Shown here one piece after another: positions 1-18,048 of a stretch of DNA of 64,000 nt (position 1 is its first letter; every line of letters begins with the position of its first letter). Origin of the DNA: a virus; IMG/VR virus record IMGVR_UViG_3300030060_006228, positions 3,076 to 67,075 of that record; one strand, written 5' to 3'. A program made the translations under genes and the position numbers. Below the pieces are notes generated by a model. It was not told where the DNA came from. It searched no databases and was given only the letters and a program-made list of their open reading frames with translations.

Positions 1-21
1 AGTGGGGACATCAGAAGAGTA

Positions 22-1757: not shown

Positions 1758-1760
1758 AAA

Positions 1761-1895: not shown

Positions 1896-1905
1896 GGAGA
1901 AAAAT

Positions 1906-2865: not shown

Positions 2866-2871
2866 ATTCAT

Positions 2872-2944
2872 GGGCTTGACGCGGATGGCATTAGCAGCAC
2901 CGCTTATAACGGTGTCATCGTGGGTTCGAGTCCCACCAGGCCCA
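2872..2944 (+). tRNA. tRNA-Ile(UAU)
   Basis: Acceptor GGGCTTG/CAGGCCC, anticodon arm CACCG-CTTATAA-CGGTG, T arm GTGGG-TTCGAGT-CCCAC; atypical position 8 and D arm. Confidence 0.8.
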
Positions 2945-2966
2945 CTTAATCTTATGGAGAATCATT

Positions 2967-3920
2967 ATGTCAAAATGTCCCTTTTCAGTTTTTCATAGTA
3001 AAAAAAATCGATTAGAGGAAGAGAAACCCTCAATCATAGAAGACTATACCGACAATCCATATTTGCGGGTTCGTAGGGTACATCCCACACAAGGTTCTCG
3101 TATTGTAAAGGCAAACTCTAAACTCAAAGGCCCAGATGGACAATGTGAAACTCTAGAGTGGCCTAGAAAAGATGCACTGAGTAGATGCGGACCTTATGTA
3201 CATGCGAACCAAATGGGTTGGTGGTTGTTCCCCGCTGTGGATATTGATATGACATACCACGGCGATGGTGCATGGGATGTTCATGAATACACAAAGTTCG
3301 ACGCGGATGCGGAACAGAAACTATATGATGATCTTCCAAAGTATGAATACAAAACGGAAGATGGTAAGACTGAAGTTTTCAGATCCCAACCAAGAGCCCA
3401 TGTTAATGCTGGTTTAGCAGATAAAAATATTATTCAGATCTGGACTGGTTGTATGTTTAGAACTCCTCCGGGATGGTGTCTTCTTATTAGAAGTCCTGTC
3501 AATGCATGTGAAAGTTATAATAGACCATATCACATTCAAGAGGGAGTTATTGAATCTGACTGGATGGACTATGACATCTGGATGAATGTGGTGGTAAACA
3601 GAACTCATGAAAAAATTTCTCTTCGGCAGGATATGTGGCCACCCCTTGCACAAATTATTCCCGTCAGGAGAGAAGCATACGAAGCAAATTGGGATGTCGA
3701 TGATCGAGTAATCACGGCAGATGATCCTGAGTGGGCTTCGTGGCAAGATTATAATTTTAAGAAGTGGGAACGTCAAAATGAAAAGGACAGTAAGACCTAT
3801 TTCAAAGAGCGTTCAGTACAAAAGCCTAACAAAGATGTCTCTAAGGTTCTGAAGATTCGAGATAAGTATCGAGAACAGCGAGACAATCACCAAACAAAGA
3901 AGAATAAGAATGATAGTTGA
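2967..3920 (+). CDS. DUF6065-like protein (paralog 1)
   Basis: CGPYVHANQMGWW, FRTPPGWCLLIRSPVN, EGVIESDW, PLAQIIPV. Confidence 0.7.
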   Translation: MSKCPFSVFHSKKNRLEEEKPSIIEDYTDNPYLRVRRVHPTQGSRIVKANSKLKGPDGQCETLEWPRKDALSRCGPYVHANQMGWWLFPAVDIDMTYHGDGAWDVHEYTKFDADAEQKLYDDLPKYEYKTEDGKTEVFRSQPRAHVNAGLADKNIIQIWTGCMFRTPPGWCLLIRSPVNACESYNRPYHIQEGVIESDWMDYDIWMNVVVNRTHEKISLRQDMWPPLAQIIPVRREAYEANWDVDDRVITADDPEWASWQDYNFKKWERQNEKDSKTYFKERSVQKPNKDVSKVLKIRDKYREQRDNHQTKKNKNDS

Positions 3921-5052
3921 AGACGGAATTAAACTAGATTATTCAGATGTCCTGATTCGTCCAAAGAGAAGTTCCCTAGTCAGTAGAAAAGATGTTTCTC
4001 TGACTAGAGACTTTTCCTTTCGGTGGGCAACTTTCATTGATACATGCATTCCACTTTGGTCTGCAAATATGGACACAACCGGAACTCTTGAAACAGCAAA
4101 GGCTTTTCAACACAGTATGTTCGGTGATGACTGGAAAGAAAGTGGAGTTGCAAATGTAGCAGTACATAAGCACTATACTTTAGATGAATGGAAAACGATT
4201 TGTTATGGTGGGGACACGAAAGAAGAAGCACAGTCCCTTCCAGAATATCCACTTCGTGCAGGTAATATGGCATTCAGTTGCGGAATGACAGATAGAGATT
4301 TTTCTCTTCTAGAGGAAATCGTAAAACTAAATGAAACTACAGATCTTGGTTTGAGATATGTTTGCATCGATGTTGCAAATGGATATACTCAATCATTTAT
4401 AGAATATATTAAAAAGGTTCGCAAATGTGTAGGTACGAACATGGCGATCATCGCGGGGAATGTAGTAACCAGAGAGATGGCTGAAGCACTTCTTCTGGCA
4501 GGTGCGGATATTATCAAGGTTGGAATCGGTCCGGGATCCGCCTGCACCACACGAAAAGTGGCAGGAGTAGGATATCCACAATTATCGGCAGTAGCAGAAT
4601 GCGCCGATGCAGCACATGGACTGGACGGTCATATCATGGCGGATGGTGGATGCAACTCTCCGGGTGACGTAGCAAAGGCGTTTGCAGCAGGTGCCGATTT
4701 CGTGATGATCGGTGGTATGTTCGCAGGACACGACGAGTCAGGTGGAGATGCGATCTACGATATCGATACCGGAGAATGCACCCACAAGACGTTCTATGGG
4801 ATGTCTAGCAAGACTGCTATGGAGAAGCACAGCGGTGGTGTAGCAACGTACAGAGCGTCTGAGGGACGCTCTGTGACGCTCCCGTACCGTGGGAGTATCA
4901 ACGGAACCCTGAATCATATATTGGGTGGTGTTCGTTCTGCGTGTACCTATGTCGGTGCAAATCGGCTGAAAGATCTGCCTAAGTGCGCCTCTTTTATTAG
5001 GGTAAACAATCAGTATAATACGGTGTTTGAGAATGTTACCCATAGTGAATAA
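3910..5052 (+). CDS. guaC: GMP reductase
   Basis: LDYSDVLIRPKRS, ANMDTTGT, DVANGY, KVGIGPGSACTTR, FYGMSS, YRASEG. Confidence 0.95.
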   Translation: MIVEDGIKLDYSDVLIRPKRSSLVSRKDVSLTRDFSFRWATFIDTCIPLWSANMDTTGTLETAKAFQHSMFGDDWKESGVANVAVHKHYTLDEWKTICYGGDTKEEAQSLPEYPLRAGNMAFSCGMTDRDFSLLEEIVKLNETTDLGLRYVCIDVANGYTQSFIEYIKKVRKCVGTNMAIIAGNVVTREMAEALLLAGADIIKVGIGPGSACTTRKVAGVGYPQLSAVAECADAAHGLDGHIMADGGCNSPGDVAKAFAAGADFVMIGGMFAGHDESGGDAIYDIDTGECTHKTFYGMSSKTAMEKHSGGVATYRASEGRSVTLPYRGSINGTLNHILGGVRSACTYVGANRLKDLPKCASFIRVNNQYNTVFENVTHSE

Positions 5053-5056
5053 CGAA

Positions 5057-5233
5057 ATGATTTTTGCAGTATCTGCCTGTTTTTTCTTTATCGCCAGTTT
5101 ATCGATTTGGAATAGTGTAATGCAGGCAAAAGCCATTTATGAATTTAGAGAACTGGTAGAGGATACCAAAAAGAGAATGGCTAAAATGCAAGAGATCCTA
5201 TATGAAGAATTAGAAAAGAGAGACGATGAATAA
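5057..5233 (+). CDS. Small membrane-anchored protein
   Basis: Hydrophobic N-terminus followed by a coiled segment. Confidence 0.55.
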   Translation: MIFAVSACFFFIASLSIWNSVMQAKAIYEFRELVEDTKKRMAKMQEILYEELEKRDDE

Positions 5234-5963
5234 AATTCATTTAATATCTTACTCGGAAGATAGGATGTTTAGTTTCGCAGAATCACGAAAGAGAGTACAG
5301 AAAGAGGCTGAAGATTTCGGTGAGTTTGATAGTATAACTTTGTGCAATGAAAATGATTTGGATGATTCAGTAAAGGAAATTGTAAAACCCACTCTCGAAC
5401 AACCGAGAGGTGCTGGATACTGGATCTGGAAACCATTCATAATACAGAAGAAACTCAAAGAACTGGATGAGGGTGATTTCCTAATTTATATGGATATGGG
5501 AATAACTCTCAATAAACACGCAAAGAAAAACTTTTACGATTTACTTGGTCGGGCACAGAGTTCGAATCACGGGACTATTTGTTTTGAGATAGGACACACG
5601 GAAAAACATTGGTGTGTTAAAGAAATATTTGAACACCTAGAGTGTTCGGATAACGAAACAATAAAAAATACAGATCAGTACTACGCCGGACTTCTCATTT
5701 TCTGTAAGAATAAAAACTTGATTAATTTGATAGACGAGTGGTGTGATATTGCATATAATAATCCCATGTTATTCAGTGACGAGTTAGCAGACGATCAGGA
5801 TTTTGAATTCAAAGAAAACAGACACGATCAAGCAGTGTTTAGTGTTCTGAGGAAAACCAAAAATGTTCAACCCATCATTTATGATCCAATCGCTTATGAT
5901 CAGTGGGAACTTCGAAAATCATATTACGAAGCAGCATTTTGGAATTTACATCTAAGGAGTTAA
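5226..5963 (+). CDS. Putative glycosyltransferase (GT-A-like)
   Basis: RGAGYWIWKP, LIYMDMG, ENRHDQAVFS motifs. Confidence 0.65.
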   Translation: MNKIHLISYSEDRMFSFAESRKRVQKEAEDFGEFDSITLCNENDLDDSVKEIVKPTLEQPRGAGYWIWKPFIIQKKLKELDEGDFLIYMDMGITLNKHAKKNFYDLLGRAQSSNHGTICFEIGHTEKHWCVKEIFEHLECSDNETIKNTDQYYAGLLIFCKNKNLINLIDEWCDIAYNNPMLFSDELADDQDFEFKENRHDQAVFSVLRKTKNVQPIIYDPIAYDQWELRKSYYEAAFWNLHLRS

Positions 5964-5964
5964 T

Positions 5965-6342
5965 ATGAATAGGAAACCTACAATCTATGTTGCAGGACCG
6001 ATGCGTGGATATGAAAATTATAATTATCCCGCATTTGATGAAAGAGCAAAAATTCTAGAGAGATATGGATGGGCTGTAGTGAACCCAGCACAATTAGACC
6101 GACAAGAAGGAAAGCCTATGTCGGATCCGATGGCGTTTTCTCCGGATACTAATTATGAGGATCATGAATTTATGCGTTCGGCACTTAAGAGAGATATGGA
6201 CGCACTGTGTGATGAGTGTACTGCCATTTATATGATGCGTGAATGGGAAAAGAGCCGTGGTGCAAAGGCAGAGTGGCACTTAGCAAAGGCACTTGGACTT
6301 GATATTTACTATGAAGTGCCTCTTCCGATTTATCCCGAATAA
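5965..6342 (+). CDS. DUF4406 / nucleoside 2-deoxyribosyltransferase-like protein
   Basis: IYVAGPMRG..YNYPAF...WEKSRGAKAE...AKALGL. Confidence 0.85.
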   Translation: MNRKPTIYVAGPMRGYENYNYPAFDERAKILERYGWAVVNPAQLDRQEGKPMSDPMAFSPDTNYEDHEFMRSALKRDMDALCDECTAIYMMREWEKSRGAKAEWHLAKALGLDIYYEVPLPIYPE

Positions 6343-6356
6343 TTTTGTTTTAGTTG

Positions 6357-6384
6357 TTGCAGTGGCGGTTACGGTTGGTATAAT
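6357..6384 (+). promoter_or_regulatory. Sigma70-like promoter
   Basis: TTGCAG-N16-TATAAT. Confidence 0.6.
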
Positions 6385-6429
6385 TAAAGCATGTCAACGG
6401 GACAGCACAACAAACAACACAAGGAGACA

Positions 6430-6635
6430 CTCAGATGCGAGAGTACTGAGAATATTAAGCATGGATTATATTAAAGGTTATGTTATTATATTGAAGTCTC
6501 CTACCGCAGACACGGCCCCGCAAGGGTAGACTTAAACTAGGGAGAGTTTGACATCGTTTTCCCTCCGAAACAAACGATGTTAACATGGGTTGGGGGAAAC
6601 CCCAACGCCATGAATTCAGGAGATCGTTTCTCCGA
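6430..6635 (+). ncRNA. Candidate structured RNA upstream of tRNA-Lys
   Basis: Consecutive hairpins, three capped by GNRA tetraloops (GAGA, GCAA, GAAA); no convincing CDS. Confidence 0.5.
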
Positions 6636-6646
6636 CAATCAGGAAT

Positions 6647-6719
6647 GCCTCCGTAACTCAGTTGGTAGAGTAGCGGACTTTTAATCCGCGAGTCGCTGGT
6701 TCGAGCCCAGCCGGGGGCA
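6647..6719 (+). tRNA. tRNA-Lys(UUU)
   Basis: Canonical cloverleaf; GCGGA-CTTTTAA-TCCGC. Confidence 0.95.
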
Positions 6720-6753
6720 CTTCTCACACGGTTCTTTATTGGAGATTTTTATT

Positions 6754-6924
6754 ATGAAACACAAACTAGCAAATCTTTGCTACGGACTCGGGTTCGCGTC
6801 CATCGCTCTTTCCGCTTATGCGTACTCCTCTGCTGGAGTCGATCAAGCAACGTATGTGGGACTTTGGGTTCCTTCATTCTTCCTCGTAGGATTCTTCTTT
6901 GATAAGTTGCACGCCAATGATTGA
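6754..6924 (+). CDS. Small two-TM membrane protein
   Basis: GGAG RBS; two hydrophobic helices, YVGLWVPS. Confidence 0.7.
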   Translation: MKHKLANLCYGLGFASIALSAYAYSSAGVDQATYVGLWVPSFFLVGFFFDKLHAND

Positions 6925-7279
6925 TAAACAACTACAAAGAAACTCTCTCGGAGTCATTGGACTCGGTGCTTTCTGTGGTTCCATCATGCAAGCAGCCGCA
7001 GGTGAATTTGAGAATGCAATTGTTCTTGGTATGATTGCGCCTAGTATGTTTGCCATTCGTTCAGATATTCCTTCTCTTGAAATGAGTCGTGACATTGATG
7101 ATCGAGAAAACTCCATCTATCAAAGTATGGAATACAACGAGCGTGAGTGCGACACTCGCATTACCGATATGGATCGTGAAATTCACAGCCGTATCGATGA
7201 CGTTGAACGCCAGATGGAAAACGAAGTTCGAGAAATTTATTCAGAAATGTCCAACAACAATGTTGACATCACTGATTGA
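6917..7279 (+). CDS. Membrane protein with coiled-coil C-terminus
   Basis: Hydrophobic N-terminus and heptad-like acidic tail. Confidence 0.6.
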   Translation: MIDKQLQRNSLGVIGLGAFCGSIMQAAAGEFENAIVLGMIAPSMFAIRSDIPSLEMSRDIDDRENSIYQSMEYNERECDTRITDMDREIHSRIDDVERQMENEVREIYSEMSNNNVDITD

Positions 7280-7290
7280 TAGAGTATAAT
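7263..7290 (+). promoter_or_regulatory. Consensus sigma70 promoter
   Basis: TTGACA-N16-TATAAT. Confidence 0.8.
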
Positions 7291-7379
7291 TAATGCATAG
7301 TCGAGACGGGACAGTTAACGGTGATGTCCAGAGTTCTCAAGTCTAATTTGTTCACCGTAAGTTTACAGGAGTTTGCATA

Positions 7380-7652
7380 ATGAACTGCAAGACCATGTCC
7401 AAGAAGCGTAAGGTAATCAACTACCTTTACAACGGTAACGGCCTCACCGCTAACGAAGCCAAGAGTCGGTTTGGTGTTTCAAACCTTCGCGCCACTATCT
7501 CTGACATCCGTGATATGGTGGAAGCCCACGGTAACTGGGAGATCACCAGCGAGACTACCAAGACTGGTAAGACTCGCTACTACATGGAGGACACCCATCC
7601 GGGTACTCGTTCCTTCGGTTTCGACAGCGAAGGCCGTCGTTTCGCTCTCTGA
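7380..7652 (+). CDS. Winged-HTH DNA-binding protein
   Basis: LTANEAKSRFGVSNLRATISDIR...GKTRYYM; AGGAG RBS; own promoter and terminator. Confidence 0.7.
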   Translation: MNCKTMSKKRKVINYLYNGNGLTANEAKSRFGVSNLRATISDIRDMVEAHGNWEITSETTKTGKTRYYMEDTHPGTRSFGFDSEGRRFAL

Positions 7653-7666
7653 GTGAAAACAACTCC

Positions 7667-7701
7667 GGGTACTTTGGGGGTTTCCCCCATCGTACTCTTT
7701 T
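7667..7701 (+). terminator. Rho-independent terminator
   Basis: GGGTAC-TGGGGG/CCCCA-GTACTC hairpin followed by TTTT. Confidence 0.6.
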
Positions 7702-7720
7702 ACAACTGAATAACATATAT

Positions 7721-7921
7721 GCGGAAGTCATGAGCCGCGTATAGGACGGTGACTGAATATTGTTCGTCATGTGATAAAAGGTACTGTCTTCCCTGTAGTG
7801 GGGTGCTGATGCTCAAATGAGTGAAGTAGCGAGTAACTAACGCAAGGTAGGTCTGAGTAGGGTACTAATCGCCTAGCGTGAACCCGAAAAGTGGTGGTAA
7901 ATGGTAATCCACCCCGTCCAC
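7721..7921 (+). ncRNA. Candidate ~200-nt multi-stem ncRNA of unknown family
   Basis: GGACGG (7744) / CCGTCC (7914) closing helix encloses several hairpins; GC-richer than flanks; no + strand CDS. Confidence 0.55.
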
Positions 7922-7933
7922 GAATTACTGTCT

Positions 7934-7969
7934 GAGGGGAGGCGAAGCGAAAGCATCTCGCCTCCCTTC
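7934..7969 (+). other. Strong hairpin (terminator or processing site)
   Basis: GAGGGGAGGCGA...TCGCCTCCCTTC with an inner GC-GAAA-GC. Confidence 0.6.
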
Positions 7970-7984
7970 GAGACATATATAAAA

Positions 7985-8285
7985 CTGGTATTGATGAAGA
8001 CGGAATAAAATCTAAACAAGACGGGAGTTCGATTCTCCCCGCCTCCACCAGAGTTACCCTTGCATGTAGTATAGAAGCAAGACGTAATAAAACCAAAGAG
8101 AAGATTTGTGAGGGTAACTCTGATGGGGGCGAACGGAATAGATTGGTAGAAAGTAGTGAAGTTGGAGATACCCGAGAAGGCAACCTACTCGCAAATCGCG
8201 GTTGTAAAAATTAACTGGCGCAAACAATTTTGCCCTTGCTGCCTGAGCAGCGGAGATTCACCCACTTGTCAACAGAACGGGTGAT
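7985..8285 (+). ncRNA. ssrA: Circularly permuted two-piece tmRNA
   Basis: Acceptor piece ends GGGAG-TTCGATT-CTCCC-CGCCTCC-A-CCA at 8050; coding piece starts GGGGGCG at 8125 (G3:U70); pk1 at ~8172-8206; tag GANNFALAA* at 8217-8246; outer ends approximate. Confidence 0.9.
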
Positions 8286-8287
8286 GG

Positions 8288-8319
8288 AAAACGGGGACGA
8301 AAGTTCTCGTTTTTCTTTA
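8288..8319 (+). terminator. Terminator after the tmRNA
   Basis: AAACGGGGAC-GAAA-GTTCTCGTTT followed by a T run. Confidence 0.75.
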
Positions 8320-8360
8320 TACATACTATGTTATTTCATTACTTTTTATGGAGGTGTATA

Positions 8361-8579
8361 ATGGATTTTAATTCTGAGTTATGGGAAAACCTAAAACCAT
8401 CCGACAGCGTGATTCGAGGGTTGAAGGCAAGACTTAAATATTGCAGTCAAGACGTAATTTGCACTCCGGCAAATAAATGTGCCTGTGATAAAATGCTTGA
8501 AGATCTGGAAGACTCCGAAGAGTGGATCAACTCTCTTCCGGGTGAAGCAAGTACTTGCGAAACTTCAGATAGAGATTGA
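8361..8579 (+). CDS. Small hypothetical protein with a Cys cluster
   Basis: GGAGG RBS before ATG 8361. Confidence 0.6.
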   Translation: MDFNSELWENLKPSDSVIRGLKARLKYCSQDVICTPANKCACDKMLEDLEDSEEWINSLPGEASTCETSDRD

Positions 8580-8604
8580 CAACCTTAAATAACAGAGGTA
8601 TAAT
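8576..8604 (+). promoter_or_regulatory. Consensus sigma70 promoter
   Basis: TTGACA-N17-TATAAT. Confidence 0.85.
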
Positions 8605-8606
8605 AC

Positions 8607-8777
8607 ATGGGTGATAAGCATGGTGCTGGTAAAGGTGATCGTTACCGACCAGTAGATCAAGATCGTTATAGAGAAAACTACGAAAAGATTTTTGGAAAGG
8701 CAAACAACAATGGAAAAGATTCAAATCGTAAGACTAACAACGGGCGAAGAACTTCTCGCAAAGGCGACAGTAAATGA
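8607..8777 (+). CDS. Small basic phage protein (GKGDRYRPV...YRENYEKIFG), not in the ORF track
   Basis: GAGG RBS; resembles small GKG..RP..Y..N...IF phage ORFs. Confidence 0.65.
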   Translation: MGDKHGAGKGDRYRPVDQDRYRENYEKIFGKANNNGKDSNRKTNNGRRTSRKGDSK

Positions 8778-9042
8778 AGACAAGACTACAATCACCATCA
8801 AGGATGTAGCAATTCTTATCCCTGCTGGTGAAGGTAAACTTGCATTCGCTCCTTGGTGTCCATACAGTGATGTAGCAGATGGTGTGGAGATTGGTATGGA
8901 ACATATCATGTTCACTGCTTCTCCTCAGTCTGAACTTGAACAGCAGTATATCTCCGCTATTAGTGGACTCGCTGTTCCACAGGAAAAGAAGATTGCAACA
9001 CCCGGAGATTTCATGGCGGGTGATCTGAAACTTACTAAATGA
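8710..9042 (+). CDS. Sm-like domain protein of T4-like phages
   Basis: IVRLTTGEELLAK...FAPWCPYS...LEQQY. Confidence 0.7.
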   Translation: MEKIQIVRLTTGEELLAKATVNEDKTTITIKDVAILIPAGEGKLAFAPWCPYSDVADGVEIGMEHIMFTASPQSELEQQYISAISGLAVPQEKKIATPGDFMAGDLKLTK

Positions 9043-9056
9043 TTAGGATGTGAATT

Positions 9057-9929
9057 ATGAATGAAAATGGTGAAGGCGTTTGTCCCGCGTTCAGTATGAT
9101 TAATGGTGAAACATTTTTCCCTACAGAACTAAATGATGAATATGATCTTAATGTAATTGCATATGAAATCAATCCCGAAATGAAACTCACCTCTGGATCA
9201 GGACAGAGGGAGTGGATTAAAAACACGGGTGCTGAATATGACGACGAAGGAAAACTAGTTGGGTTTAGTGGGTATGCAAAGAAATGTCTTCCTCTCATTG
9301 CAGCAAATACCCTTGGATGGCAGGTGCTATCCGATCAGAGATATGAAGTCACATGGAATGGTGGACCTAACATCAATGATATTACTATCGTTTCTGAAGA
9401 TAACAATCCAAAACTAAGTAGTCACTTCGGAACTGGTACAGTAACTTGGCATGTTGGTTATGTATTCTATACAACCAAAGGAAACTTCATGTACTGTAAA
9501 GGTCCAACCAATCATTTCAAGCACGGGATCCAAGCGTGTGAGGGTTTGATCGAAACGGACTGGTTGCCGTTTACATTTACTATGAACTGGATGATAACCA
9601 AACCAAATGAAACTATAGTATTTGAAAAGGGTGAACCCATCTGTCAGTTGTTCCCATATCCAAAGGAATATGTCGAAAACTTTGATGCAAAGATTCGCAC
9701 TAAAGATAGTATGCCTACTGAGTTGAAGAAATTGTACGACTATTGGTGTCACTCTAGAGATGTATTCAACAAAGCGAAGAGAGAGCCTGGTGATTGGGAA
9801 GGTAATTACTTCAAGGGTGAAGTTCACGACAACACCAACTGCGAAGACTTAGGAAGAAAGCATTATACAACAATTAAAATGCCTAAGTTTAAAGTTCAGT
9901 CTTCCCTCGATTCATATGAGTCTGATTGA
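9057..9929 (+). CDS. DUF6065 family protein (paralog 2)
   Basis: CLPLIAANTLGW, SHFGTG, GPTN..K.GI..CEGLIETDWLPFTFTMNW, FEKGEPIC. Confidence 0.85.
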   Translation: MNENGEGVCPAFSMINGETFFPTELNDEYDLNVIAYEINPEMKLTSGSGQREWIKNTGAEYDDEGKLVGFSGYAKKCLPLIAANTLGWQVLSDQRYEVTWNGGPNINDITIVSEDNNPKLSSHFGTGTVTWHVGYVFYTTKGNFMYCKGPTNHFKHGIQACEGLIETDWLPFTFTMNWMITKPNETIVFEKGEPICQLFPYPKEYVENFDAKIRTKDSMPTELKKLYDYWCHSRDVFNKAKREPGDWEGNYFKGEVHDNTNCEDLGRKHYTTIKMPKFKVQSSLDSYESD

Positions 9930-9935
9930 TTTACT

Positions 9936-10009
9936 GCGCCCGTAACTCAATTGGATAGAGTAGCGGCCTTCTAAGCCGCAAGTTGCTGGTTCGAGTCCAG
10001 CCGGGCGTG
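9936..10009 (+). tRNA. tRNA-Arg(UCU)
   Basis: Canonical cloverleaf; GCGGC-CTTCTAA-GCCGC. Confidence 0.95.
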
Positions 10010-10022
10010 TTGGAGTTTAATA

Positions 10023-10271
10023 ATGCCACATGTAATAACAAAGTCATGCGTAGGAGTAAAGGACGGATCTTGTGTAGATGTCTGTCCAGTTGATTGTATT
10101 CATTCTGATGAGGACTCTGATCAATTTTACATAGATCCGGACACCTGCATTGATTGCGGACTGTGTGTAGATGAATGTCCAGTCAATGCAATTTATAGTG
10201 AAGAAGACCTTACTCCAGATCTTCAAAAATACATACAAATCAATTTGGATTATTTTGAAAACAAGACTTGA
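10023..10271 (+). CDS. FdxA-type dicluster ferredoxin
   Basis: C-x7[10 protein letters not shown] and [12 protein letters not shown]. Confidence 0.92.
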
Positions 10272-10639
10272 TGGAATCTAGAATAATAAAAACTATAGAT
10301 TTTGCTAGGGACATTACTATTCAAAACCCCCGTCCAAAAAAGCATACTTCAATCATTCTCAGAAAGAATGAAATAGTTTCGGTTGGAACAAACCTAAATA
10401 GAACGCATCCTCTTGCTAAAAAGTATGGTTATCTTTTTGATGAAGTGCATTCTGAGTTAGACGCTCTTCTGCGATATAAAGGACCGAAAGATAATCTGAT
10501 TCTCATAAATTATAGGTTTAACAGGTTTGGTGATATGAGGATGTCCAAGCCTTGCAGAAAATGTACCCCTTGGTGTGTGGGTGTATTTGATAAAATTTGG
10601 TATACTACTAATCAAGGTATGAACGAACTAGAATTTTAA
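10271..10639 (+). CDS. Zn-dependent cytidine/dCMP deaminase-fold protein
   Basis: HSE and PCxxC (SKPCRKC) motifs. Confidence 0.8.
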   Translation: MESRIIKTIDFARDITIQNPRPKKHTSIILRKNEIVSVGTNLNRTHPLAKKYGYLFDEVHSELDALLRYKGPKDNLILINYRFNRFGDMRMSKPCRKCTPWCVGVFDKIWYTTNQGMNELEF

Positions 10640-10650
10640 GGAGAAGTTCA

Positions 10651-10869
10651 ATGTATTCACTCGGAGAGTCTGTAATAAATAAAAATAACCATAAGATGGC
10701 TACTGTAATATGTACAGATTCGCCTATTGATGAAAATGTTGATAGCAGTGAACAAACTGTTCGCATTCGTTATGAAGAAAGTGGACTAGAGGAATGGGTT
10801 CCTGTTTCATCAGTGGCAAACTTTCTCCTCGAAGTTGAGCCGGGTGAGGGAAATTACCTTGCAGAGTAA
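10651..10869 (+). CDS. Hypothetical protein
   Basis: AAGGAG RBS. Confidence 0.65.
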   Translation: MYSLGESVINKNNHKMATVICTDSPIDENVDSSEQTVRIRYEESGLEEWVPVSSVANFLLEVEPGEGNYLAE

Positions 10870-10876
10870 ATGTCCT

Positions 10877-11017
10877 ATGGTAAAATACAAGTCGCATATG
10901 ATATGCGGGGTGCTTGCGATCTTGTGCCCTTTCTCTTTGATTGTGACAATACCGGCATTTTTTGGTGCTAAAAAGTTGAGGAAAAGAAATGAACATCAAC
11001 GAACAGAAGTGGATTGA
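10877..11017 (+). CDS. Small membrane protein
   Basis: One hydrophobic segment and a basic tail; fills the gap. Confidence 0.45.
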   Translation: MVKYKSHMICGVLAILCPFSLIVTIPAFFGAKKLRKRNEHQRTEVD

Positions 11018-11387
11018 CAGTATGACGGATAAAGCAGAAAAAGGCTTTAGTTATTACGTTTGGGAAAACAGAATGCCTGTTTCTCCCAATGATGTCATTC
11101 GTGTTTCTGGTAATCATGAATGTTTCGTCACAGGGGACACAATCAAACCACAGGATGATGCACATTGGACAGACGAGTTTGACGCATGGGTTTCTATCCG
11201 TGGATATCAAATGATTCAGAACGCTCAGTCTACAGGTGAACTCTCTAATAATAGAGAATGGGAACTTATGTTCGCAGAGTGGTACGCGAAGGATGAATCT
11301 ATCGCGGGACTAGAAGAAGCGTGGCACAGTGAACGCATGGCAAAGTCTGCTGATGACGCAGGATGTTTCGACGCAATAGACGATTAA
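10989..11387 (+). CDS. Hypothetical protein
   Basis: 132-aa ORF with a GAGG RBS. Confidence 0.65.
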   Translation: MNINEQKWIDSMTDKAEKGFSYYVWENRMPVSPNDVIRVSGNHECFVTGDTIKPQDDAHWTDEFDAWVSIRGYQMIQNAQSTGELSNNREWELMFAEWYAKDESIAGLEEAWHSERMAKSADDAGCFDAIDD

Positions 11388-11392
11388 TCTAA

Positions 11393-11476
11393 GCGGTCGT
11401 GGCGGAATGGCAGACGCAACGGACTTAAAATCCGTCGAGGGTTAACCTCATGTGGGTTCGAGTCCCACCGACCGTA
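11393..11476 (+). tRNA. tRNA-Leu(UAA)
   Basis: Long variable arm; ACGGA-CTTAAAA-TCCGT. Confidence 0.95.
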
Positions 11477-11480
11477 TTTA

Positions 11481-11554
11481 CAGAGTGTAGCACAGTTTGG
11501 TAGTGCGTTGCGTTTGGGACGCAAAGGTCGTAGGTTCAAATCCTATCACTCTGA
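11481..11554 (+). tRNA. tRNA-Pro(UGG)
   Basis: CAGAGTG/CACTCTG acceptor; TTGCG-TTTGGGA-CGCAA. Confidence 0.95.
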
Positions 11555-11555
11555 T

Positions 11556-13037
11556 TTAATAGCCTCCGCCTCCACCGTATCCTCCGCCACCGCCCATCGG
11601 GGGACTGGGGGGATTGAGGGGATCGATTAAATCTTCAAATGGATCTTCCATGTCTTGGAATTCAGGCGTAGATTGAAGATTTGGATCGCTATCTTGTTGG
11701 GGAGTATCTCTCGTTGGAGGTGGCTTTGGAGGTGCTTCACCGACTTCCGCTGCAATACCCTGCTGACCGGGGTTACATCCGGCTCTCGTCATACACGCGG
11801 ACACATTTCTCCAATAACCATCGGTCGATGACGACCGATGACCGCAAGGTCCCCCGTTGTGCATTCTTGCAAGATCCTCGCAAGTGCAGCATCGTAGACG
11901 TTCTATCTCACCATTTGATTTTGTATACTCATGAATTGTTTTGCCGGTGCAGTGACAGTCCTTGCTCTTGAAGTTTCTTGTATATCTTCTTCTCCAACAG
12001 TCTATAAGTTTTTCACTTTTTCGTTTCTTCTCTGCACAACACGCAGAATCACCTTTAACACATTCTCTACACAATGTCGCAGCATAATCGGGCTGGCAAA
12101 CTTCACAACAATTTGCTGTGTCGTAGCCTGGCCTCGTTCCACCCGGTCCATCTCCTCCTTGAGAGTCTCCGCCTCTACATGGTCTGGTTCCCCCGCCGGA
12201 TGTTCCACAAATATCTTCGATATAAGCACGCCATGATATTTGATATGGACCACAATCACAACTATTAAATGTCCCAAATTTATCACACGGATCTCCGGGG
12301 AGACAATCGTCAATACCATCACAGTTACTGTCGAATCTTTCTCTCATGGGAACGTCTTGCGGATTCCGATCCCCATCGCGGGGAACGTCGGTGTCACAAT
12401 CTCCACAATCGGTTGCTTGTGCGTTACAACCTTCGTTTGGGTAGCCCCTAGATTCTTCTTCACGAATACATCCCATAAGGCAGTCAAAATTAGCACCTGT
12501 GCAGCATATATTAAGTCTAGGTCCGGGACGAACATTAACAATAGTTACTGGTTTATCGGGACCTTCTTCTAGATCTGGTGGTTGGTATATGTCAAAACCA
12601 GATGTGTCTGGGGGTTCAACGCTACCTCTAGGTGGTTCTGGGCGACTACCAAGTCCTCCCCCATCACTTCTAAAGGTGGCTTCTATTTGAATTATTAGTT
12701 CTCCACCCATTCCACTATGGTTAGAACAGAAATAGTAGAGTTTTGGTGGTGTGTTTAATGTTGGGGTTAGTTCAACTCTGGGGTTTGCTTCTGGATCAAA
12801 ATCATTGTTCATAAAATCAACGTATCTTTCATATGATACTTGAATATTATTAATGATATAAGAAATTTCATCCCCATTATAAATGGAACCACCAGCGTGA
12901 GTCCCGTTCGGTGTAGTTGAGAACAAAATTGGATGTCCAGCATTTCTAAAATCGTCTAGATTAAATGAATAAGTTTCACCCACAAGAATGGTAGGTGTTG
13001 CTTGTCTTTCATCGTTTAAATAATATTTATTTGCCAT
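11556..13037 (-). CDS. Putative virion protein: LYYFCSNHSGMGG domain plus Cys-rich region
   Basis: GHPILFSTT..GTH.GG / LYYFCSNHSGMGG module of the kind found in T4-like structural proteins; Gly/Tyr tail. Confidence 0.6.
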   Translation of the reverse strand: MANKYYLNDERQATPTILVGETYSFNLDDFRNAGHPILFSTTPNGTHAGGSIYNGDEISYIINNIQVSYERYVDFMNNDFDPEANPRVELTPTLNTPPKLYYFCSNHSGMGGELIIQIEATFRSDGGGLGSRPEPPRGSVEPPDTSGFDIYQPPDLEEGPDKPVTIVNVRPGPRLNICCTGANFDCLMGCIREEESRGYPNEGCNAQATDCGDCDTDVPRDGDRNPQDVPMRERFDSNCDGIDDCLPGDPCDKFGTFNSCDCGPYQISWRAYIEDICGTSGGGTRPCRGGDSQGGDGPGGTRPGYDTANCCEVCQPDYAATLCRECVKGDSACCAEKKRKSEKLIDCWRRRYTRNFKSKDCHCTGKTIHEYTKSNGEIERLRCCTCEDLARMHNGGPCGHRSSSTDGYWRNVSACMTRAGCNPGQQGIAAEVGEAPPKPPPTRDTPQQDSDPNLQSTPEFQDMEDPFEDLIDPLNPPSPPMGGGGGYGGGGGY

Positions 13038-13082
13038 TTAATCAACCTTTTCTAGTTTACACTATGTATTTCTGTTTGAGTT

Positions 13083-15188
13083 TTACCTGTAGCAACAAGG
13101 TCCTTTTATCCTATACAATTTACCTGTATCATTGTGTCTTACAACGAAGATATTTGCTGTCTGACCTTTAGTCGGCGACGATCCCTTTGGACATTTTCCT
13201 GCTTCCTGTCCAATAGCCCTCAGATCGAGACAGTCTCCACCGTTATTATCTGGTACAGGACCGTTGTATGGAATTGCGGAATAGGGGGATCCATCTTCAT
13301 TGTCTGTAAAATCTGCTCTACAACCAGATAGAATTATATTACATTCGGGTTTTGTTGGTATAGTTACTTGGAATAGGTTTCCTGCTGCTGCTATTTGATC
13401 CTCAACTGCCTTTGATTCTGAACCATCTTCTTTTCTAACCACAATATTGAATTCTGTTTTTTCTTGTACAGCACCAACAGAGATATTAAATTGATTTGGT
13501 GGTTTGGGATATGAGTATTCTGTGGTAGTAGGTGTATCTGTGGTAACACTTCTTCTTGCAGATTTCTTCGGGGGTGTCAGTTCATATACGCGGGGAGAAT
13601 AGTTTCCAACTTGTAGTTCTCCTCCCATATTTCTGTCAGCAGAGTTATAATAATAAAGAGTGGAATTTGCATCACCCTTGTTTATCTTTAGGAAAGTATA
13701 TGCACCGGGAGTTCCGGGTGTTCCAATCAGTATCCTATTTGTATAGTTCTGAACTCCTCTTGCGAGACTGTCCACTGTTTTCTTAAACGCAATATAAACG
13801 CCTCGGTTACTGGGATGTGACTGATTGAATCTGTAGGTTCTTCCAGCGACAAGAACTGGTTTAGAACTTAAAACAATTTCACCATTTTCTATAGTTACAT
13901 CTATTGTTCTATCTAAATCTCTTTCGTAATTTCTTTCCAGAGGAACTTCTATTTGAGAATTAGAAACAGCCGCGGATTGAATGTTTCTTACTTCAAGCCT
14001 ATCACCAAGACCATCTACTATCACATTTTGAGGTCGTGCTGTTAATGCTTCCGGTGTGTTTATTGTTGTTGGATCAGAAACTACAGTTCTAGACGTTTCA
14101 TCTGGTAAAATTGATGTTGTAGATCTCGGAGGACAACACGCACATCTTACATTTGAATCGTCATCGGGAGAATCCGGGAATGTAGCAAAGCCAGAACAAG
14201 AAGAGTCATATCTTTCATCACAAAAGTTTCGACTCTGATAATTAAAAAGATAATCCATGTTCATAGATCTTGCTAATGATATACACTCCCAATCATCTTT
14301 ACATCCACAAGAATACACTTCATTTTGTGTAAATACATTTCCGGTTTCATCATCTTCGATTCTTTGGTTTTCTTTTAGATAAAGACAACACGTTCCTCGT
14401 CCTCCGTTGGAATTATTTTGTCTTCTTAGACTACGAACTTCTCTCAATGTGGTTTTGTCTAGTTGGTTTTCTGAGTAACCATTTCTGTATAATCTAACCG
14501 GAGTCACAGTCCCCATTAAGTCTTCTTCTTCAAGTCTGTTATTTAGTGTTATGATCTCAACACCATTTTCTACTTTATAAGAATCAACTTCGAATCTGCC
14601 TTTATTTAAGGTAGTATTTATTTCCAGTAAATCGCCCCGCAGAATAGGTCTTGCATTTCTGAATGAATACTTCGAGTCTGGACCTGTTTGGTTTCTTATC
14701 TCAAATAAACTTTTAGACTCTACTGAGGCGTTTGTTGTTGACAGTCTAGGAACTGTAGTAAAATACTTTGATTCGTATACTTCAGTTTTAGAATCTTTAT
14801 TGGTTACACTTGTTACATTTGCTGTTACGGTGTTTCCGTTAAAAGATATAAGTGTAAAGGAACCACTTAAATCAGATTCTACTTTTGCTCCTCTTTCTTT
14901 TATAAAAGAGGCAGTTTCAGAGTCTATGGTAAAAGAATCTCCGGTGGACATTTTCCCAAAGAAAATTTTCAGAGTTTCTAAATCATGATCGGAGGCATGA
15001 CTATAATCAAAAATTACCTCAGTGTTTGAGTTGTAAAACACCACAGTGGGTATGGTGTCTAGTGGATCATTTTTTGATATGACATCATCGGTGCTATCGG
15101 CAATAACCATACCAATAATCTCACCAGAAAAATAAATGGTGGGTTTAAAGGTACTCTTTGATCTTCTTATAGATCTTCTTTTTGCCAT
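13083..15188 (-). CDS. Putative virion structural protein
   Basis: 701 aa; degenerate copy of the same module (TYRFNQSHPSN...LYYYN...MGG) and a GTCC Cys insert. Confidence 0.6.
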   Translation of the reverse strand: MAKRRSIRRSKSTFKPTIYFSGEIIGMVIADSTDDVISKNDPLDTIPTVVFYNSNTEVIFDYSHASDHDLETLKIFFGKMSTGDSFTIDSETASFIKERGAKVESDLSGSFTLISFNGNTVTANVTSVTNKDSKTEVYESKYFTTVPRLSTTNASVESKSLFEIRNQTGPDSKYSFRNARPILRGDLLEINTTLNKGRFEVDSYKVENGVEIITLNNRLEEEDLMGTVTPVRLYRNGYSENQLDKTTLREVRSLRRQNNSNGGRGTCCLYLKENQRIEDDETGNVFTQNEVYSCGCKDDWECISLARSMNMDYLFNYQSRNFCDERYDSSCSGFATFPDSPDDDSNVRCACCPPRSTTSILPDETSRTVVSDPTTINTPEALTARPQNVIVDGLGDRLEVRNIQSAAVSNSQIEVPLERNYERDLDRTIDVTIENGEIVLSSKPVLVAGRTYRFNQSHPSNRGVYIAFKKTVDSLARGVQNYTNRILIGTPGTPGAYTFLKINKGDANSTLYYYNSADRNMGGELQVGNYSPRVYELTPPKKSARRSVTTDTPTTTEYSYPKPPNQFNISVGAVQEKTEFNIVVRKEDGSESKAVEDQIAAAGNLFQVTIPTKPECNIILSGCRADFTDNEDGSPYSAIPYNGPVPDNNGGDCLDLRAIGQEAGKCPKGSSPTKGQTANIFVVRHNDTGKLYRIKGPCCYR

Positions 15189-15208
15189 GATAGATCCCTA
15201 TTTAATTA

Positions 15209-18025: not shown

Positions 18026-18048
18026 AGTTATGTGACTTCGGTTGTTTT

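What the first reader, a model, noticed from the sequence alone, without database searches (positions are those of the whole stretch)
7985..8285. Phage-encoded circularly permuted two-piece tmRNA
Seen: the T arm, acceptor 3' strand and CCA (8023-8050) come before the 5' end GGGGGCG (8125). The two form a 7-bp stem with the G3:U70 alanine determinant. Also present are helix 2 (TTGGTAGA/TCTAAACAA), pk1 (CGAG/CTCG, GCAACC/GGTTGT), the resume context TTAACT, the tag (A)GANNFALAA* and a downstream TCACCC..CAACAGAA..GGGTGA element. Established: permuted tmRNAs occur in Alphaproteobacteria and some cyanobacteria and betaproteobacteria. The TTCGATT T loop here is not the alphaproteobacterial type. Inference: possibly an independent phage permutation supporting ribosome rescue or tRNA-targeting counter-defence. 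No smpB is in the window.
Basis: partly seen in the sequence, partly recalled or inferred. Interest (0 to 1): 0.85.

Follow-up and report, generated by a model that had tools for sequence, protein, structure and literature searches.

The report
Two-piece tmRNA gene in marine phage
A marine T4-like phage carries a genuine rearranged ("two-piece") gene for tmRNA, the RNA that rescues stalled ribosomes; phage genes of this kind have already been published, so this is a solid new example and not a new kind of thing.

Summary
At 7987-8315 (+) the T arm, acceptor 3' strand and CCA lie before the 5' strand GGGGGCG, and the two strands form a 7-bp stem with G3:U70. P2, pk1, a tag frame (A)GANNFALAA*, P5 with the stop in its loop, a terminal hairpin and a terminator follow. 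Rfam tmRNA_permuted scores 73.8 bits (cut-off 47). In 13 homologues, 96.4% of cells pair and 18 of 52 pairs change on both sides. The window is a T4-like marine virus record. Phage two-piece tmRNAs are already in print: phage Melnitz, and 53 unique forms in 18,146 phage genomes (PMC9004378). This copy is not alpha type. It fails the alpha, beta and cyano lineage models. It sits in a marine viral cluster (95/94). Whether that cluster came from the beta type or from a separate permutation among phage tmRNAs cannot be resolved. No SmpB gene is in the record. Processing and expression were not shown. A manA-like RNA lies directly upstream here and in the closest relative.

The parts
7718..7923 (+). 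manA-like structured RNA directly upstream. Adjacent; it may belong to the same transcript.
   Evidence: RF01745 at 54.1 bits against cut-off 55.2, E 4.9e-11. The closest relative L175 has it at 57.0 bits in the same position.
7935..7967 (+). Strong hairpin between the manA-like RNA and the tmRNA gene, with no T run behind it.
   Evidence: Read from the sequence. Conserved in L175. Its 5' strand underlies the sub-threshold RF00023 match 7938-8050 at 36.5 bits.
7987..8050 (+). Acceptor piece: 3' strands of P2, T arm 8023-8039, acceptor 3' strand 8040-8046, discriminator A8047, encoded CCA 8048-8050.
   Evidence: RF04321 alignment. P2a pairs 100% paired with 2 double changes. T arm and acceptor are invariant in 13 sequences.
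8051..8124 (+). Intervening segment to be excised. The stem 8051-8060/8111-8120 extends the acceptor stem.
   Evidence: 10 pairs, 100% paired, 5 with changes on both sides. The stem is present in the MFE and centroid folds.
8125..8172 (+). Start of the coding piece: acceptor 5' strand GGGGGCG (8125-8131, G8127:U8044), D-loop analogue, 5' strands of P2.
   Evidence: ARAGORN at -ps80 places the 5' tRNA domain here.
8173..8205 (+). Pseudoknot pk1: stem 1 is 8173-76/8188-91; stem 2 is 8180-85/8200-05.
   Evidence: Stem 1: 4 pairs, 100% paired, 2 double changes. Stem 2: 6 pairs, 93.6% paired, 4 double changes.
8211..8246 (+). Resume context TTAACT (8211-8216) and tag frame GGC..GCC TGA (8217-8246), giving (A)GANNFALAA*.
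   Evidence: The frame is open from this codon in 13 of 13 homologues and is 8-9 codons long, all ending in AA. TAACT precedes it in 12 of 13. ARAGORN gives the same tag.
8238..8251 (+). P5 hairpin GCTGC/GCAGC with the stop codon in its loop.
   Evidence: 5 pairs, 98.5% paired, 1 double change. Present in the folds.
8258..8284 (+). Terminal hairpin of the coding piece, with loop ACTTGTCAACAGAAC. Probably a remnant of the first hairpin of pk2.
   Evidence: Same loop core with a wholly different stem (GAAAC/GTTTC) in L253. The motif is in 30 of 30 alpha-type genes, beta L153, Melnitz and L175, and at about nt 160 of one-piece tmRNAs L219, L221 and L222.
8289..8318 (+). Intrinsic-terminator-like hairpin (8292-98/8303-09, GAAA loop) followed by a T run.
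   Evidence: Read from the sequence and present in the fold. L175 has compensatory changes in it. The simple terminator scan did not list it.

Best explanation
This is a functional phage-borne ssrA gene in the circularly permuted (two-piece) form.

Inferred mechanism:
1. One precursor is transcribed, possibly together with the manA-like RNA upstream.
2. The intervening segment 8051-8124 folds into a helix that stacks on the acceptor stem.
3. Host tRNA-processing enzymes cut it out: RNase P before G8125, and 3' trimming to the encoded CCA at 8050.
4. This leaves an acceptor piece (about 7987-8050) and a coding piece (8125 to about 8315), held together by the acceptor stem and P2.
5. Host alanyl-tRNA synthetase charges it through G3:U70, and host SmpB and EF-Tu bring it to stalled ribosomes.
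6. Translation resumes at GGC 8217 and adds (A)GANNFALAA, a degradation tag, to the stalled product.

For the phage this would keep ribosomes free while host mRNA is being broken down, or replace host tmRNA.

Shown: the anatomy, its conservation and its covariation.
Inferred: processing, charging, use of host SmpB, and the benefit to the phage.
For: - Gene order and all defining helices are present.
- Covariation in P2, pk1, P5 and the intervening stem: 18 of 52 pairs change on both sides, 96.4% of cells pair, 0 of 500 shuffles reach this, and slid controls give 40-54%.
- The tag frame is kept open in 13 of 13 homologues despite different peptides (GANNFALAA, GAHKLALAA, GNSFKLAA, DNSYSLAA, DNSYKMAA). 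All end in AA, and the stop lies in the P5 loop.
- CCA is encoded, and G3:U70 is kept in 13 of 13.
- The fold has z = -4.26.
- Relatives have their own sigma-70 promoter just before the acceptor piece (L003 and L004; L253) and terminators after the coding piece.
- The gene lies among five phage tRNA genes in a T4-like structural-gene context.
- The same kind of gene is published for phage Melnitz. My controls reproduce its alpha model hit (106.7 bits) and its glutamine riboswitch (52.8 bits) (PMC9004378).
Against: - ARAGORN finds nothing at default thresholds and calls it only at -ps80.
- The Rfam score of 73.8 is only modestly above the 47-65 bits the same model gives on one-piece tmRNA genes.
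- The D-loop analogue reads GGAATAGATT instead of the usual GGNTTCGAC.
- No sigma-70-type promoter was found in 7600-8500.
- No SmpB is in the 67-kb record, which is estimated only 30% complete.
- All three lineage models fall below their cut-offs.
- The inner part of P2 is only 80% paired across homologues.
Confidence: 0.8

Rival explanations
1. The RNA is made but works as a decoy or inhibitor. It would titrate host SmpB or AlaRS to shut down host trans-translation, as proposed for the TLD-only molecule of mycobacteriophage DS6A, and would not tag proteins.
For: No phage SmpB was found: 0 of 1 in the window's own record and 0 of 4 related phage records. The D-loop analogue is unusual. The DS6A precedent is described in PMC4131195 and PMC11915505 (passages).
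Against: A decoy would not need pk1, the resume context or a tag frame. These are conserved or covary in 13 of 13 homologues.
Confidence: 0.08
2. It is a decaying or captured fragment of a tmRNA gene, for example picked up by recombination or left from an integration site, and has no function in the phage.
For: ARAGORN sees it only at relaxed thresholds. No promoter was found. tmRNA genes are common integration sites (PMC11915505 passage).
Against: Compensatory changes occur in several helices, and the frame is open across three diverged groups from many contigs. Both halves, the CCA and a terminator are intact. No integrase context was seen among the ORFs examined.
Confidence: 0.05
3. The true gene is a small one-piece tRNA-like molecule at 7938-8050. 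GGAGGCG at 7938 would be the acceptor 5' strand, and the downstream part would be unrelated.
For: RF00023 aligns 7938-8050 at 36.5 bits, E 5.8e-13. GGAGGCG pairs perfectly with CGCCTCC. The hairpin is conserved in L175.
Against: The score is below the cut-off of 47, and 324 model positions are replaced by 69 bases. This pairing gives A3:U70, not G3:U70. Groups B and C have a promoter or other sequence there instead. It leaves the covarying P2, pk1 and tag downstream unexplained.
Confidence: 0.03
4. It is a chance match of the Rfam model and there is no RNA gene.
For: RF04321 has false positives up to 65 bits.
Against: Covariation, homologues in at least 16 further contigs and the fold z-score.
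Confidence: 0.01

Closest known systems
Two-piece tmRNA of Methylophilales phage Melnitz and Pelagibacter phage Mosig (T4-like, Kyanoviridae; Buchholz et al. 2022, PMC9004378)
   Same: A phage-borne, circularly permuted ssrA in a marine T4-like myovirus with no phage SmpB. The terminal hairpin has an AACAGAA loop. A riboswitch-class RNA sits next to the gene: glutamine in Melnitz, manA-like here. The window's portal protein is 53.7% identical to that of Mosig.
   Different: Melnitz passes the alpha model (106.7 bits), has the alpha T loop GGCAGTA, and groups with alpha-type genes (100/100). The window copy scores 27.1 bits, has TTCGATT, carries a 9-codon tag against 14, and its structured RNA lies upstream, not downstream.
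Betaproteobacterial two-piece tmRNA (Rfam RF01850; Sharkady and Williams 2004, not read, cited in PMC9004378)
   Same: Canonical T loop. Compact coding-piece end: tag, P5, one hairpin, terminator. L153 has the loop CACTTGGCAACAGAATA. With unbiased standard rows, the best tree joins the phage rows and the beta type (94/79). The window cluster plus beta as one clade is not rejected (p 0.23 and 0.41).
   Different: RF01850 gives 35.5 bits against a cut-off of 84. True members score 169-296, and 25-50 bits is what one-piece tmRNA genomes give. The 5' domain reads CGATT, not CGAC. pk1 differs in sequence.
Unannotated permuted tmRNAs of Achromobacter phages JWDelta and Axy11 (Schitoviridae) and Bordetella phage PHB04
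   Same: Almost the same T arm and acceptor end, and the same CGATT 5' domain. RF04321 scores 95.8 bits. They also fail the alpha and beta models.
   Different: A different phage family and different hosts. Intervening segment of 207 nt against 74. Tag ANDDYIRLAA by my reading. They do not join the window cluster with support once more sequences are added.
One-piece tmRNAs of phages (mycobacteriophage Bxz1 group and Bacillus phage G, PMC4131195; IMG/VR loci L246, L233 and L251 found here)
   Same: Phage-borne ssrA. L246, L233 and L251 share the GATTGGTAG P2 start, the ...ACAAGAC junction before the T arm, and (L251) the TTTAACT resume context.
   Different: Standard gene order with pk2-pk4 present (341-345 nt). 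The window gene is permuted and keeps only one hairpin after P5.
TLD-only tmRNA-like RNA of mycobacteriophage DS6A (PMC4131195, PMC11915505)
   Same: A phage-borne tmRNA derivative.
   Different: DS6A lacks the tag frame. The window gene has pk1, a resume context and a conserved frame.

Membership tests
tmRNA (ssrA), any gene form | tRNA-like domain: 7-bp acceptor stem with G3:U70, T arm, discriminator A and 3' CCA | tested here: met
   8125-8131 pairs with 8040-8046, including G8127:U8044. T arm at 8023-8039. ACCA at 8047-8050. Invariant in 13 of 13 homologues.
tmRNA (ssrA), any gene form | D-loop analogue GGNTTCGAC after the acceptor 5' strand | tested here: inconclusive
   The window reads GGAATAGATT. 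Relatives read GGATTCGATT or GGTTTCGATT. All 66 bacterial rows of the first alignment carry CGAC (output).
tmRNA (ssrA), any gene form | Long helix P2 joining the tRNA-like domain to the mRNA-like domain | tested here: met
   Outer P2: 6 pairs, 100% paired, 2 double changes. Inner P2: 7 pairs, 80.2% paired, 3 double changes.
tmRNA (ssrA), any gene form | Pseudoknot pk1 just before the resume codon | tested here: met
   The two stems have 2 and 4 pairs changed on both sides.
tmRNA (ssrA), any gene form | Short tag frame ending in hydrophobic residues plus AA, with the stop in helix 5 | tested here: met
   GANNFALAA*. 13 of 13 homologues have an open frame ending in AA, and the stop lies in the P5 loop.
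tmRNA (ssrA), any gene form | Alanylation, SmpB binding and trans-translation activity | not testable with these tools
   No SmpB gene in the record or in 4 related phage records. Host SmpB is assumed.
Permuted (two-piece) tmRNA, Rfam RF04321 | Acceptor piece encoded before the coding piece, with an intervening segment between CCA and the 5' G | tested here: met
   CCA ends at 8050 and the 5' G is at 8125. The 74-nt segment has a covarying 10-bp stem. Model score is 73.8 against 47, but false positives reach 65 bits.
Permuted (two-piece) tmRNA, Rfam RF04321 | Precursor cleaved into two RNAs held together by base pairing | not testable with these tools
   The RNA contigs laid on the stretch did not cover the gene beyond the T arm shared with other tmRNAs. 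Raw-read ends are needed.
Alphaproteobacterial two-piece tmRNA, RF01849 | Model score over 50 bits; reduced T loop (GGCGGTA type) | tested here: not met
   27.1 bits, local match only. The T loop is TTCGATT, against GGCGGTA-like loops in 30 of 30 alpha-type genes. Separated from the alpha clade by a 100/100 branch. Positive control: Melnitz scores 106.7 bits.
Betaproteobacterial two-piece tmRNA, RF01850 | Model score over 84 bits | tested here: not met
   35.5 bits. True members score 169-296 bits (3 of 151 genomes). 131 of 151 genomes give sub-threshold matches, up to 49.6 bits. Tree affinity is 94/79 and not decisive.
Cyanobacterial two-piece tmRNA, RF01851 | Model score over 70 bits | tested here: not met
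   19.5 bits, local match only. I had no positive control, because I could reach no cyanobacterial genome. 0 of 4 cyanophage genomes tested carry a permuted tmRNA.

The most novel reading that the evidence does not exclude
The window's tmRNA belongs to a marine-phage cluster (groups A, B and C plus L253) whose permuted gene order arose separately from the alpha, beta and cyanobacterial events. It would have arisen inside a phage-borne tmRNA family that still has one-piece members (L246 type) sharing its P2 and tRNA-like domain and its TTAACT-type resume context. In group A its transcription would be coupled to a manA riboswitch-like RNA. That would make sensor-coupled tmRNA expression a recurring phage device, alongside the glutamine riboswitch of Melnitz.
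Probability: 0.2. Interest if true: 0.6.

Novelty: new member of a known kind. Interest (0 to 1): 0.35.

Why it matters
- It adds a well-supported uncultivated example, with at least 16 homologous contigs, to the published class of phage-encoded two-piece tmRNAs.
- It shows that such genes exist outside the alpha-type pelagiphage and Melnitz group.
- It shows that the three lineage-specific Rfam models and default ARAGORN miss this cluster.
- For annotation: the merged Rfam model RF04321 gives 47-65 bits on ordinary tmRNA genes, so a hit near its cut-off needs a check of gene order.
- The mix of one-piece and two-piece forms among phage tmRNAs offers material for asking how often the gene was permuted.
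- The biological question remains open: why a lytic phage brings its own ribosome-rescue RNA while relying on host SmpB.

Tried and rejected
1. Expression and processing. One search found 20 runs in 13 studies, all labelled marine, seawater or biofilm metagenomes or 'organism A'; 6 are RNA libraries with small shares. I laid four RNA runs, which are Logan contigs. Contigs covered only 7715-7922 (the manA-like RNA, 4 runs from 3 studies, 90-97% alike) and 8016-8053 (the T arm and acceptor end, which many bacterial tmRNAs share). Nothing can be said about transcription or cuts at 8050/8125.

2. Lineage assignment by Rfam models. The alpha, beta and cyano models are all below cut-off for the window. 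The alpha and beta models are also below cut-off for 4 relatives. The full-length beta alignment at 35.5 bits looked like a lead. I rejected it after seeing that 131 of 151 Burkholderiales-order genomes give such matches and only 3 pass.

3. Using the shared T arm to find a donor. In 105 of 120 it is the 3' end of a standard one-piece tmRNA, none is permuted-only, and 15 have no call, 11 of them with under 300 bases upstream. It is therefore not informative about origin.

4. The terminal-hairpin loop motif as proof of common descent with the alpha and beta types. I rejected this because the same motif sits at the pk2 position of one-piece tmRNAs L219, L221 and L222. It is probably ancestral.

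5. Trees.
- The first tree included 12 standard rows chosen for sharing the 27-mer, so the placement next to them is circular. I left these 12 rows out from then on.
- The 31 new viral loci were chosen by a 5'-domain motif that lies inside the alignment, so the 97/89 branch uniting the viral rows is partly circular.
- With those columns masked (78 columns kept), only the window plus L175 pair keeps starred support.
- 8 of the 31 new loci could not be classed as permuted or standard and were dropped.
- The AU tests used groups named after trees had been seen.

7. Cyanophage comparison. 0 of 4 cyanophage genomes with the most similar portal proteins have a permuted tmRNA. Mosig has one at 93.6 bits.

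8. Megablast of window 1-20000 against cultured phages found no match.

9. The simple promoter scan found no sigma-70 promoter and did not list the terminator that I read at 8292-8309.

10. Literature. Searches for manA with tmRNA, riboswitch and phage (41 papers, 10 listed) and for JWDelta with tmRNA (1 paper, listing only) showed no title on a manA RNA beside a tmRNA gene or on the JWDelta tmRNA. I read none of these papers. Supplements were closed. Table S1 of PMC9004378 (the 53 two-piece phage tmRNAs) and Table S2 of PMC11915505 (79 phage tmRNAs) may already list relatives of this gene. That bears on the novelty claim.
Full report
WHAT THE WINDOW IS

The window is bases 3076-67075 of an IMG/VR virus record of 67,075 bases. 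The record is linear, and CheckV estimates it as 30% complete. GC content is 37-43%.

It carries T4-like structural genes:
- a baseplate wedge gene at 28161-29885 (phrog_219, E 5e-85);
- large terminase at 54503-56188, tail sheath at 56308-57630, portal at 58370-59878 (phrog_213, E 6e-199) and a scaffold protein at 61762-62958.

The portal protein is about 54% identical both to marine cyanophage portals and to that of Pelagibacter phage Mosig. The gp6-like protein is about 30% identical to cyanophage proteins. Megablast of the first 20 kb finds no cultured phage. It is therefore an uncultivated marine Kyanoviridae-like myovirus with an unknown host. Runs that hold the stretch are labelled marine or seawater metagenomes.

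The finding lies in a region with five tRNA genes between 2872 and 11554.

THE OBSERVATION

- T arm at 8023-8039, with loop TTCGATT.
- Acceptor 3' strand at 8040-8046, then A8047 and CCA at 8048-8050.
- 74 bases further on, GGGGGCG at 8125-8131. It pairs with the 3' strand over 7 bp, including G8127:U8044.

Rfam's merged model for permuted tmRNA (RF04321) aligns 7987-8246 over its whole length at 73.8 bits (cut-off 47), E 2.8e-12.

ARAGORN finds five tRNAs and no tmRNA, both in the tool and in my own run of v1.2.41 at default settings. At 80% thresholds it reports a permuted tmRNA with tag GANNFALAA*.

The precursor 7982-8324 folds at -107.6 kcal/mol, z = -4.26, with 0 of 100 shuffles as stable. 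The fold contains the T arm, the acceptor stem, a long intervening stem, P5, the terminal hairpin and a terminator hairpin.

A WARNING ABOUT THE MODEL SCORE

I ran RF04321 on 151 genomes sampled across Pseudomonadota.
- 58 scored over the cut-off.
- 37 of these score 113-162 bits. The 30 of them that were fetched as loci are alpha-type two-piece genes.
- 21 score only 47-65 bits.

I fetched 6 of the 21. In 5 of them ARAGORN finds an ordinary one-piece tmRNA at the place of the match. A score of 73.8 bits is therefore not far above the model's noise. The case has to rest on anatomy and comparison.

HOMOLOGUES AND COVARIATION

Pattern scans gave close relatives in IMG/VR (L003, L004) and in metagenome contigs (13 loci, L174-L186). 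Together with the window they form three groups:
- Group A: the window and L175.
- Group B: L003, L004, L174, L176, L177, L180, L182, L184 and L186. These have a perfect TTGACA-17-TATAAT promoter about 35 nt before the T arm.
- Group C: L178, L179, L181, L183 and L185.

Three of these sequences are not in alignment A1. L180 and L186 have a slice identical to that of L004. L177 was not given to the slicing script because its contig ends at the start of the T arm, so its 5' part is missing. The other 13 distinct sequences were aligned.

The structure read from the window has 52 pairs in 9 helices:
- It is 96.4% paired, against 40-54% when the 3' partners are slid by 1-3 columns.
- 18 pairs change on both sides, against 0-5 in the slid versions.
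- 0 of 500 column shuffles reach the observed pairing, covariation score or number of double changes.

Double changes fall in these helices:
- outer P2: 2 of 6 pairs;
- inner P2: 3 of 7 pairs, with only 80% of cells paired;
- the intervening stem: 5 of 10 pairs;
- pk1 stem 1: 2 of 4 pairs;
- pk1 stem 2: 4 of 6 pairs;
- P5: 1 of 5 pairs.

The T arm and the acceptor stem never vary in this set.

The sequences are related, so the shuffle control overstates significance. The slid control does not have that weakness. However, the structure was derived from one of the sequences, which favours it.

THE TAG

The frame that starts right after TTAACT is open in 13 of 13 sequences, is 8-9 codons long and always ends in AA. 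The tags are:
- GANNFALAA (window) and GAHKLALAA (L175);
- GNSFKLAA and DNSYSLAA (group B);
- DNSYKMAA (group C).

TAACT precedes the frame in 12 of 13 sequences; L175 has CAAAA. The stop codon lies in the loop of P5.

THE END OF THE CODING PIECE

After P5 comes the hairpin 8258-8284, with loop ACTTGTCAACAGAAC. A GAAA-loop hairpin with a T run follows. L175 shows compensatory changes in that last hairpin.

L253, an IMG/VR contig found later, has the same pk1 and the same 13-base loop core. Its stem is entirely different (GAAAC/GTTTC), and it has a sigma-70 promoter.

The loop motif is not special to this phage:
- It is present in 30 of 30 alpha-type bacterial genes sampled, in beta-type L153, in Melnitz and in L175.
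- Among 120 loci that carry the same 27-base T arm and acceptor end, almost all one-piece tmRNA loci, it occurs in only one, and there outside the tmRNA.
- In one-piece tmRNAs L219, L221 and L222 the same CCCGGCAACAGAAGC lies at about nt 160, the position of pk2.

I read the hairpin as the surviving first hairpin of pk2. In that reading pk2 (the rest of it), pk3 and pk4 are gone, and the break lies between this hairpin and the 3' strand of P2. This is an inference.

WHAT IS ALREADY KNOWN

Buchholz et al. 2022 (PMC9004378; passages read) describe a two-piece tmRNA with a glutamine riboswitch in the T4-like OM43 phage Melnitz. They report the following:
- 402 of 18,146 phage genomes encode 133 unique tmRNAs.
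- ARAGORN called 53 of these two-piece, and 50 of the 53 come from marine or aquatic phages.
- In their tree, phage tmRNAs share the three host lineages.

The 2025 tmRNA database paper (PMC11915505; passages) lists 79 phage tmRNAs. It explains that RF04321 merges the alpha, beta and cyano models and covers only the tRNA-like domain. Hudson et al. 2014 (PMC4131195; passages) list one-piece tmRNAs of mycobacteriophages and phage G, and the TLD-only RNA of DS6A.

I reproduced the Melnitz result: RF04321 at 113.4 bits, the alpha model at 106.7 bits and the glutamine riboswitch at 52.8 bits. The kind of gene is therefore known.

WHICH LINEAGE

The window scores 27.1 bits against 50 (alpha, local match), 35.5 against 84 (beta, full length) and 19.5 against 70 (cyano, local match).

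The beta result means little. Of 151 genomes sampled from the order of a marine betaproteobacterial MAG, 131 give such sub-threshold matches. Only 3 are real beta-type genes, at 169-296 bits.

The T loop is canonical in all 12 rows of phage groups A-D and in the 3 beta-type genes. It is of the reduced alpha kind in 30 of 30 alpha-type genes and in Melnitz.

Trees were made from the first 75 bases of the coding piece plus the last 55 of the acceptor piece:
- The alpha type and Melnitz are separated from everything else by a 100/100 branch.
- When the 12 standard rows chosen through the shared 27-mer are left out, the 12 phage rows are one group (100/97). They lie with the 3 beta-type rows on one side of a branch at 94/79, which is not decisive.

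I then scanned IMG/VR for the CGATT form of the 5' domain and got 34 loci. By a strict pairing test, 15 are permuted (12 of them new), 11 are one-piece and 8 are unresolved.

The permuted ones are of several types:
- beta-like (L237, L259), whose pk1 is almost that of L153;
- alpha-like (L232, L245);
- L253, which joins the window's cluster.

The one-piece L246, L233 and L251 resemble the window in P2 and in the junction before the T arm, and L251 also in the resume context.

On the 90-row tree:
- The window sits in a cluster of groups A, B, C and L253 (95/94).
- Gene form changes 6 times on the best tree.

The AU test rejects one clade of all permuted forms (p 0.005) and one clade of the viral permuted forms (p 0.012). 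It does not reject the window cluster plus the beta type (p 0.23).

These rows were selected by a motif inside the alignment, and the groups were named after looking at trees. With the selected columns masked (78 columns kept), only the window-L175 pair keeps support. Both 'cluster plus beta' (p 0.41) and 'cluster plus L246 type' (p 0.19) are allowed.

My reading is that the gene is certainly not alpha type and is not a recognised member of the beta or cyano families. Its origin is open: descent from the beta type, or a separate permutation inside phage-borne tmRNAs. Exchange of the tRNA-like domain between genes could also produce these patterns.

RELATIVES IN CULTURED PHAGES

The only cultured phages that match by BLAST are the Achromobacter phages JWDelta and Axy11.
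- JWDelta carries a permuted tmRNA at 95.8 bits that is not among the annotated features of the stretch.
- Axy11 and Bordetella phage PHB04 match it under 'hypothetical protein' or no feature.
- JWDelta is a Schitoviridae podovirus, so related two-piece tmRNAs occur in unrelated phage families.
- That the tmRNAs of Achromobacter and Bordetella themselves are one-piece is my recollection. I did not test it.

SmpB

The Pfam family PF01668 finds nothing in the window's own record. It also finds nothing in JWDelta, Melnitz, the 86-kb relative G001 or the complete 117.7-kb G003 (0 of 4). Use of host SmpB is inferred.

PROMOTER AND THE NEIGHBOUR UPSTREAM

No sigma-70-type promoter is found in 7600-8500, unlike in group B and L253.

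Directly upstream, 7718-7923 matches the manA RNA motif at 54.1 bits (cut-off 55.2), E 4.9e-11. In L175 the same element scores 57.0 bits and again lies right before the tmRNA gene.

The manA motif is known from marine metagenomes and T4-like cyanophages, usually in the 5' UTRs of protein genes (PMC2864571, passages; PMC9964418, passages).

Between it and the tmRNA gene lies a strong hairpin (7935-7967) with no T run. Co-transcription of the manA-like RNA and the tmRNA precursor is possible but untested.

MECHANISM AND RIVALS

The most likely working is that of any two-piece tmRNA, as laid out under Best explanation. The anatomy is shown; the processing, the charging and the benefit to the phage are inferred.

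A decoy role, a dead fragment, the alternative small one-piece reading from 7938, and a chance match are each less likely, for the reasons given with them.

VERDICT

This is a real permuted tmRNA gene in a marine T4-like phage. It is a new member of a published kind, in a cluster that current lineage models and default ARAGORN miss. Interest is moderate.

Supplementary tables that may already list relatives could not be read.

Noticed in passing
window 7718-7923 (+); L175 4526-4730 (-): A manA RNA motif (RF01745) lies directly 5' of the permuted tmRNA gene in both members of group A: 54.1 bits here (just under the 55.2 cut-off) and 57.0 bits in L175. Short RNA-library contigs from 4 runs of 3 studies match just this element (7715-7922). 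manA RNAs are otherwise described upstream of protein genes.
   Followed up: partly
window 7935-7967 (+): A GC-rich hairpin sits between the manA-like RNA and the tmRNA gene. Its 5' strand GGAGGCG could also pair with the acceptor 3' strand 8040-8046 (sub-threshold RF00023 match 7938-8050, 36.5 bits). No T run follows it. It is conserved in L175.
   Followed up: partly
L002 1473-1857 (KF787094.1, about 19736-20120); hits H30-H33: Achromobacter phage JWDelta carries a permuted tmRNA (RF04321 95.8 bits) that is not among the annotated features of the stretch. Axy11 and Bordetella phage PHB04 match it under 'hypothetical protein' or no feature.
   Followed up: partly
L008 3558-3637 (-): An 80-base match to the standard tmRNA model over both of its ends (RF00023, 65.6 bits) in an IMG/VR contig. 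It may be a TLD-only mini tmRNA like that of mycobacteriophage DS6A.
   Followed up: no
genomes; loci L217-L222: Rfam RF04321 scores 47-65 bits, above its gathering cut-off, on ordinary one-piece tmRNA genes. This affected 21 of 151 sampled Pseudomonadota genomes; 5 of the 6 fetched were standard by ARAGORN.
   Followed up: yes
IMG/VR loci L229-L259: Viral contigs hold tmRNAs whose 5' domain reads CGATT where all sampled bacterial tmRNAs read CGAC. They occur in both one-piece (11) and permuted (15) gene forms, with alpha-like, beta-like and other pk1 types. The 3' partner changes from GGAC to AGAC or ACAC, which may be a compensated pair.
   Followed up: partly
L014, L016, L018, L019: Four IMG/VR contigs carry the same standard tmRNA (RF00023 120.8 bits, tag GTNYAIAA) with the window's T arm and an acceptor end that differs by one base. 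This could be a phage gene or host flank of a prophage.
   Followed up: no
window 2967-3920 and 9057-9929 (+): Two paralogous DUF6065 proteins (PF19541, E 3e-16 and 4e-63) flank the tRNA/tmRNA region. Between them are an IMPDH/GMP-reductase-family protein (3910-5052, E 3e-69) and a DUF4406 protein (5965-6342).
   Followed up: no
window 2872-2945 (+): tRNA-Ile(TAT) has a low Rfam tRNA score (36.4 bits against 60-69 for the other four tRNAs) and a weak RF00023 match (25.3 bits).
   Followed up: no
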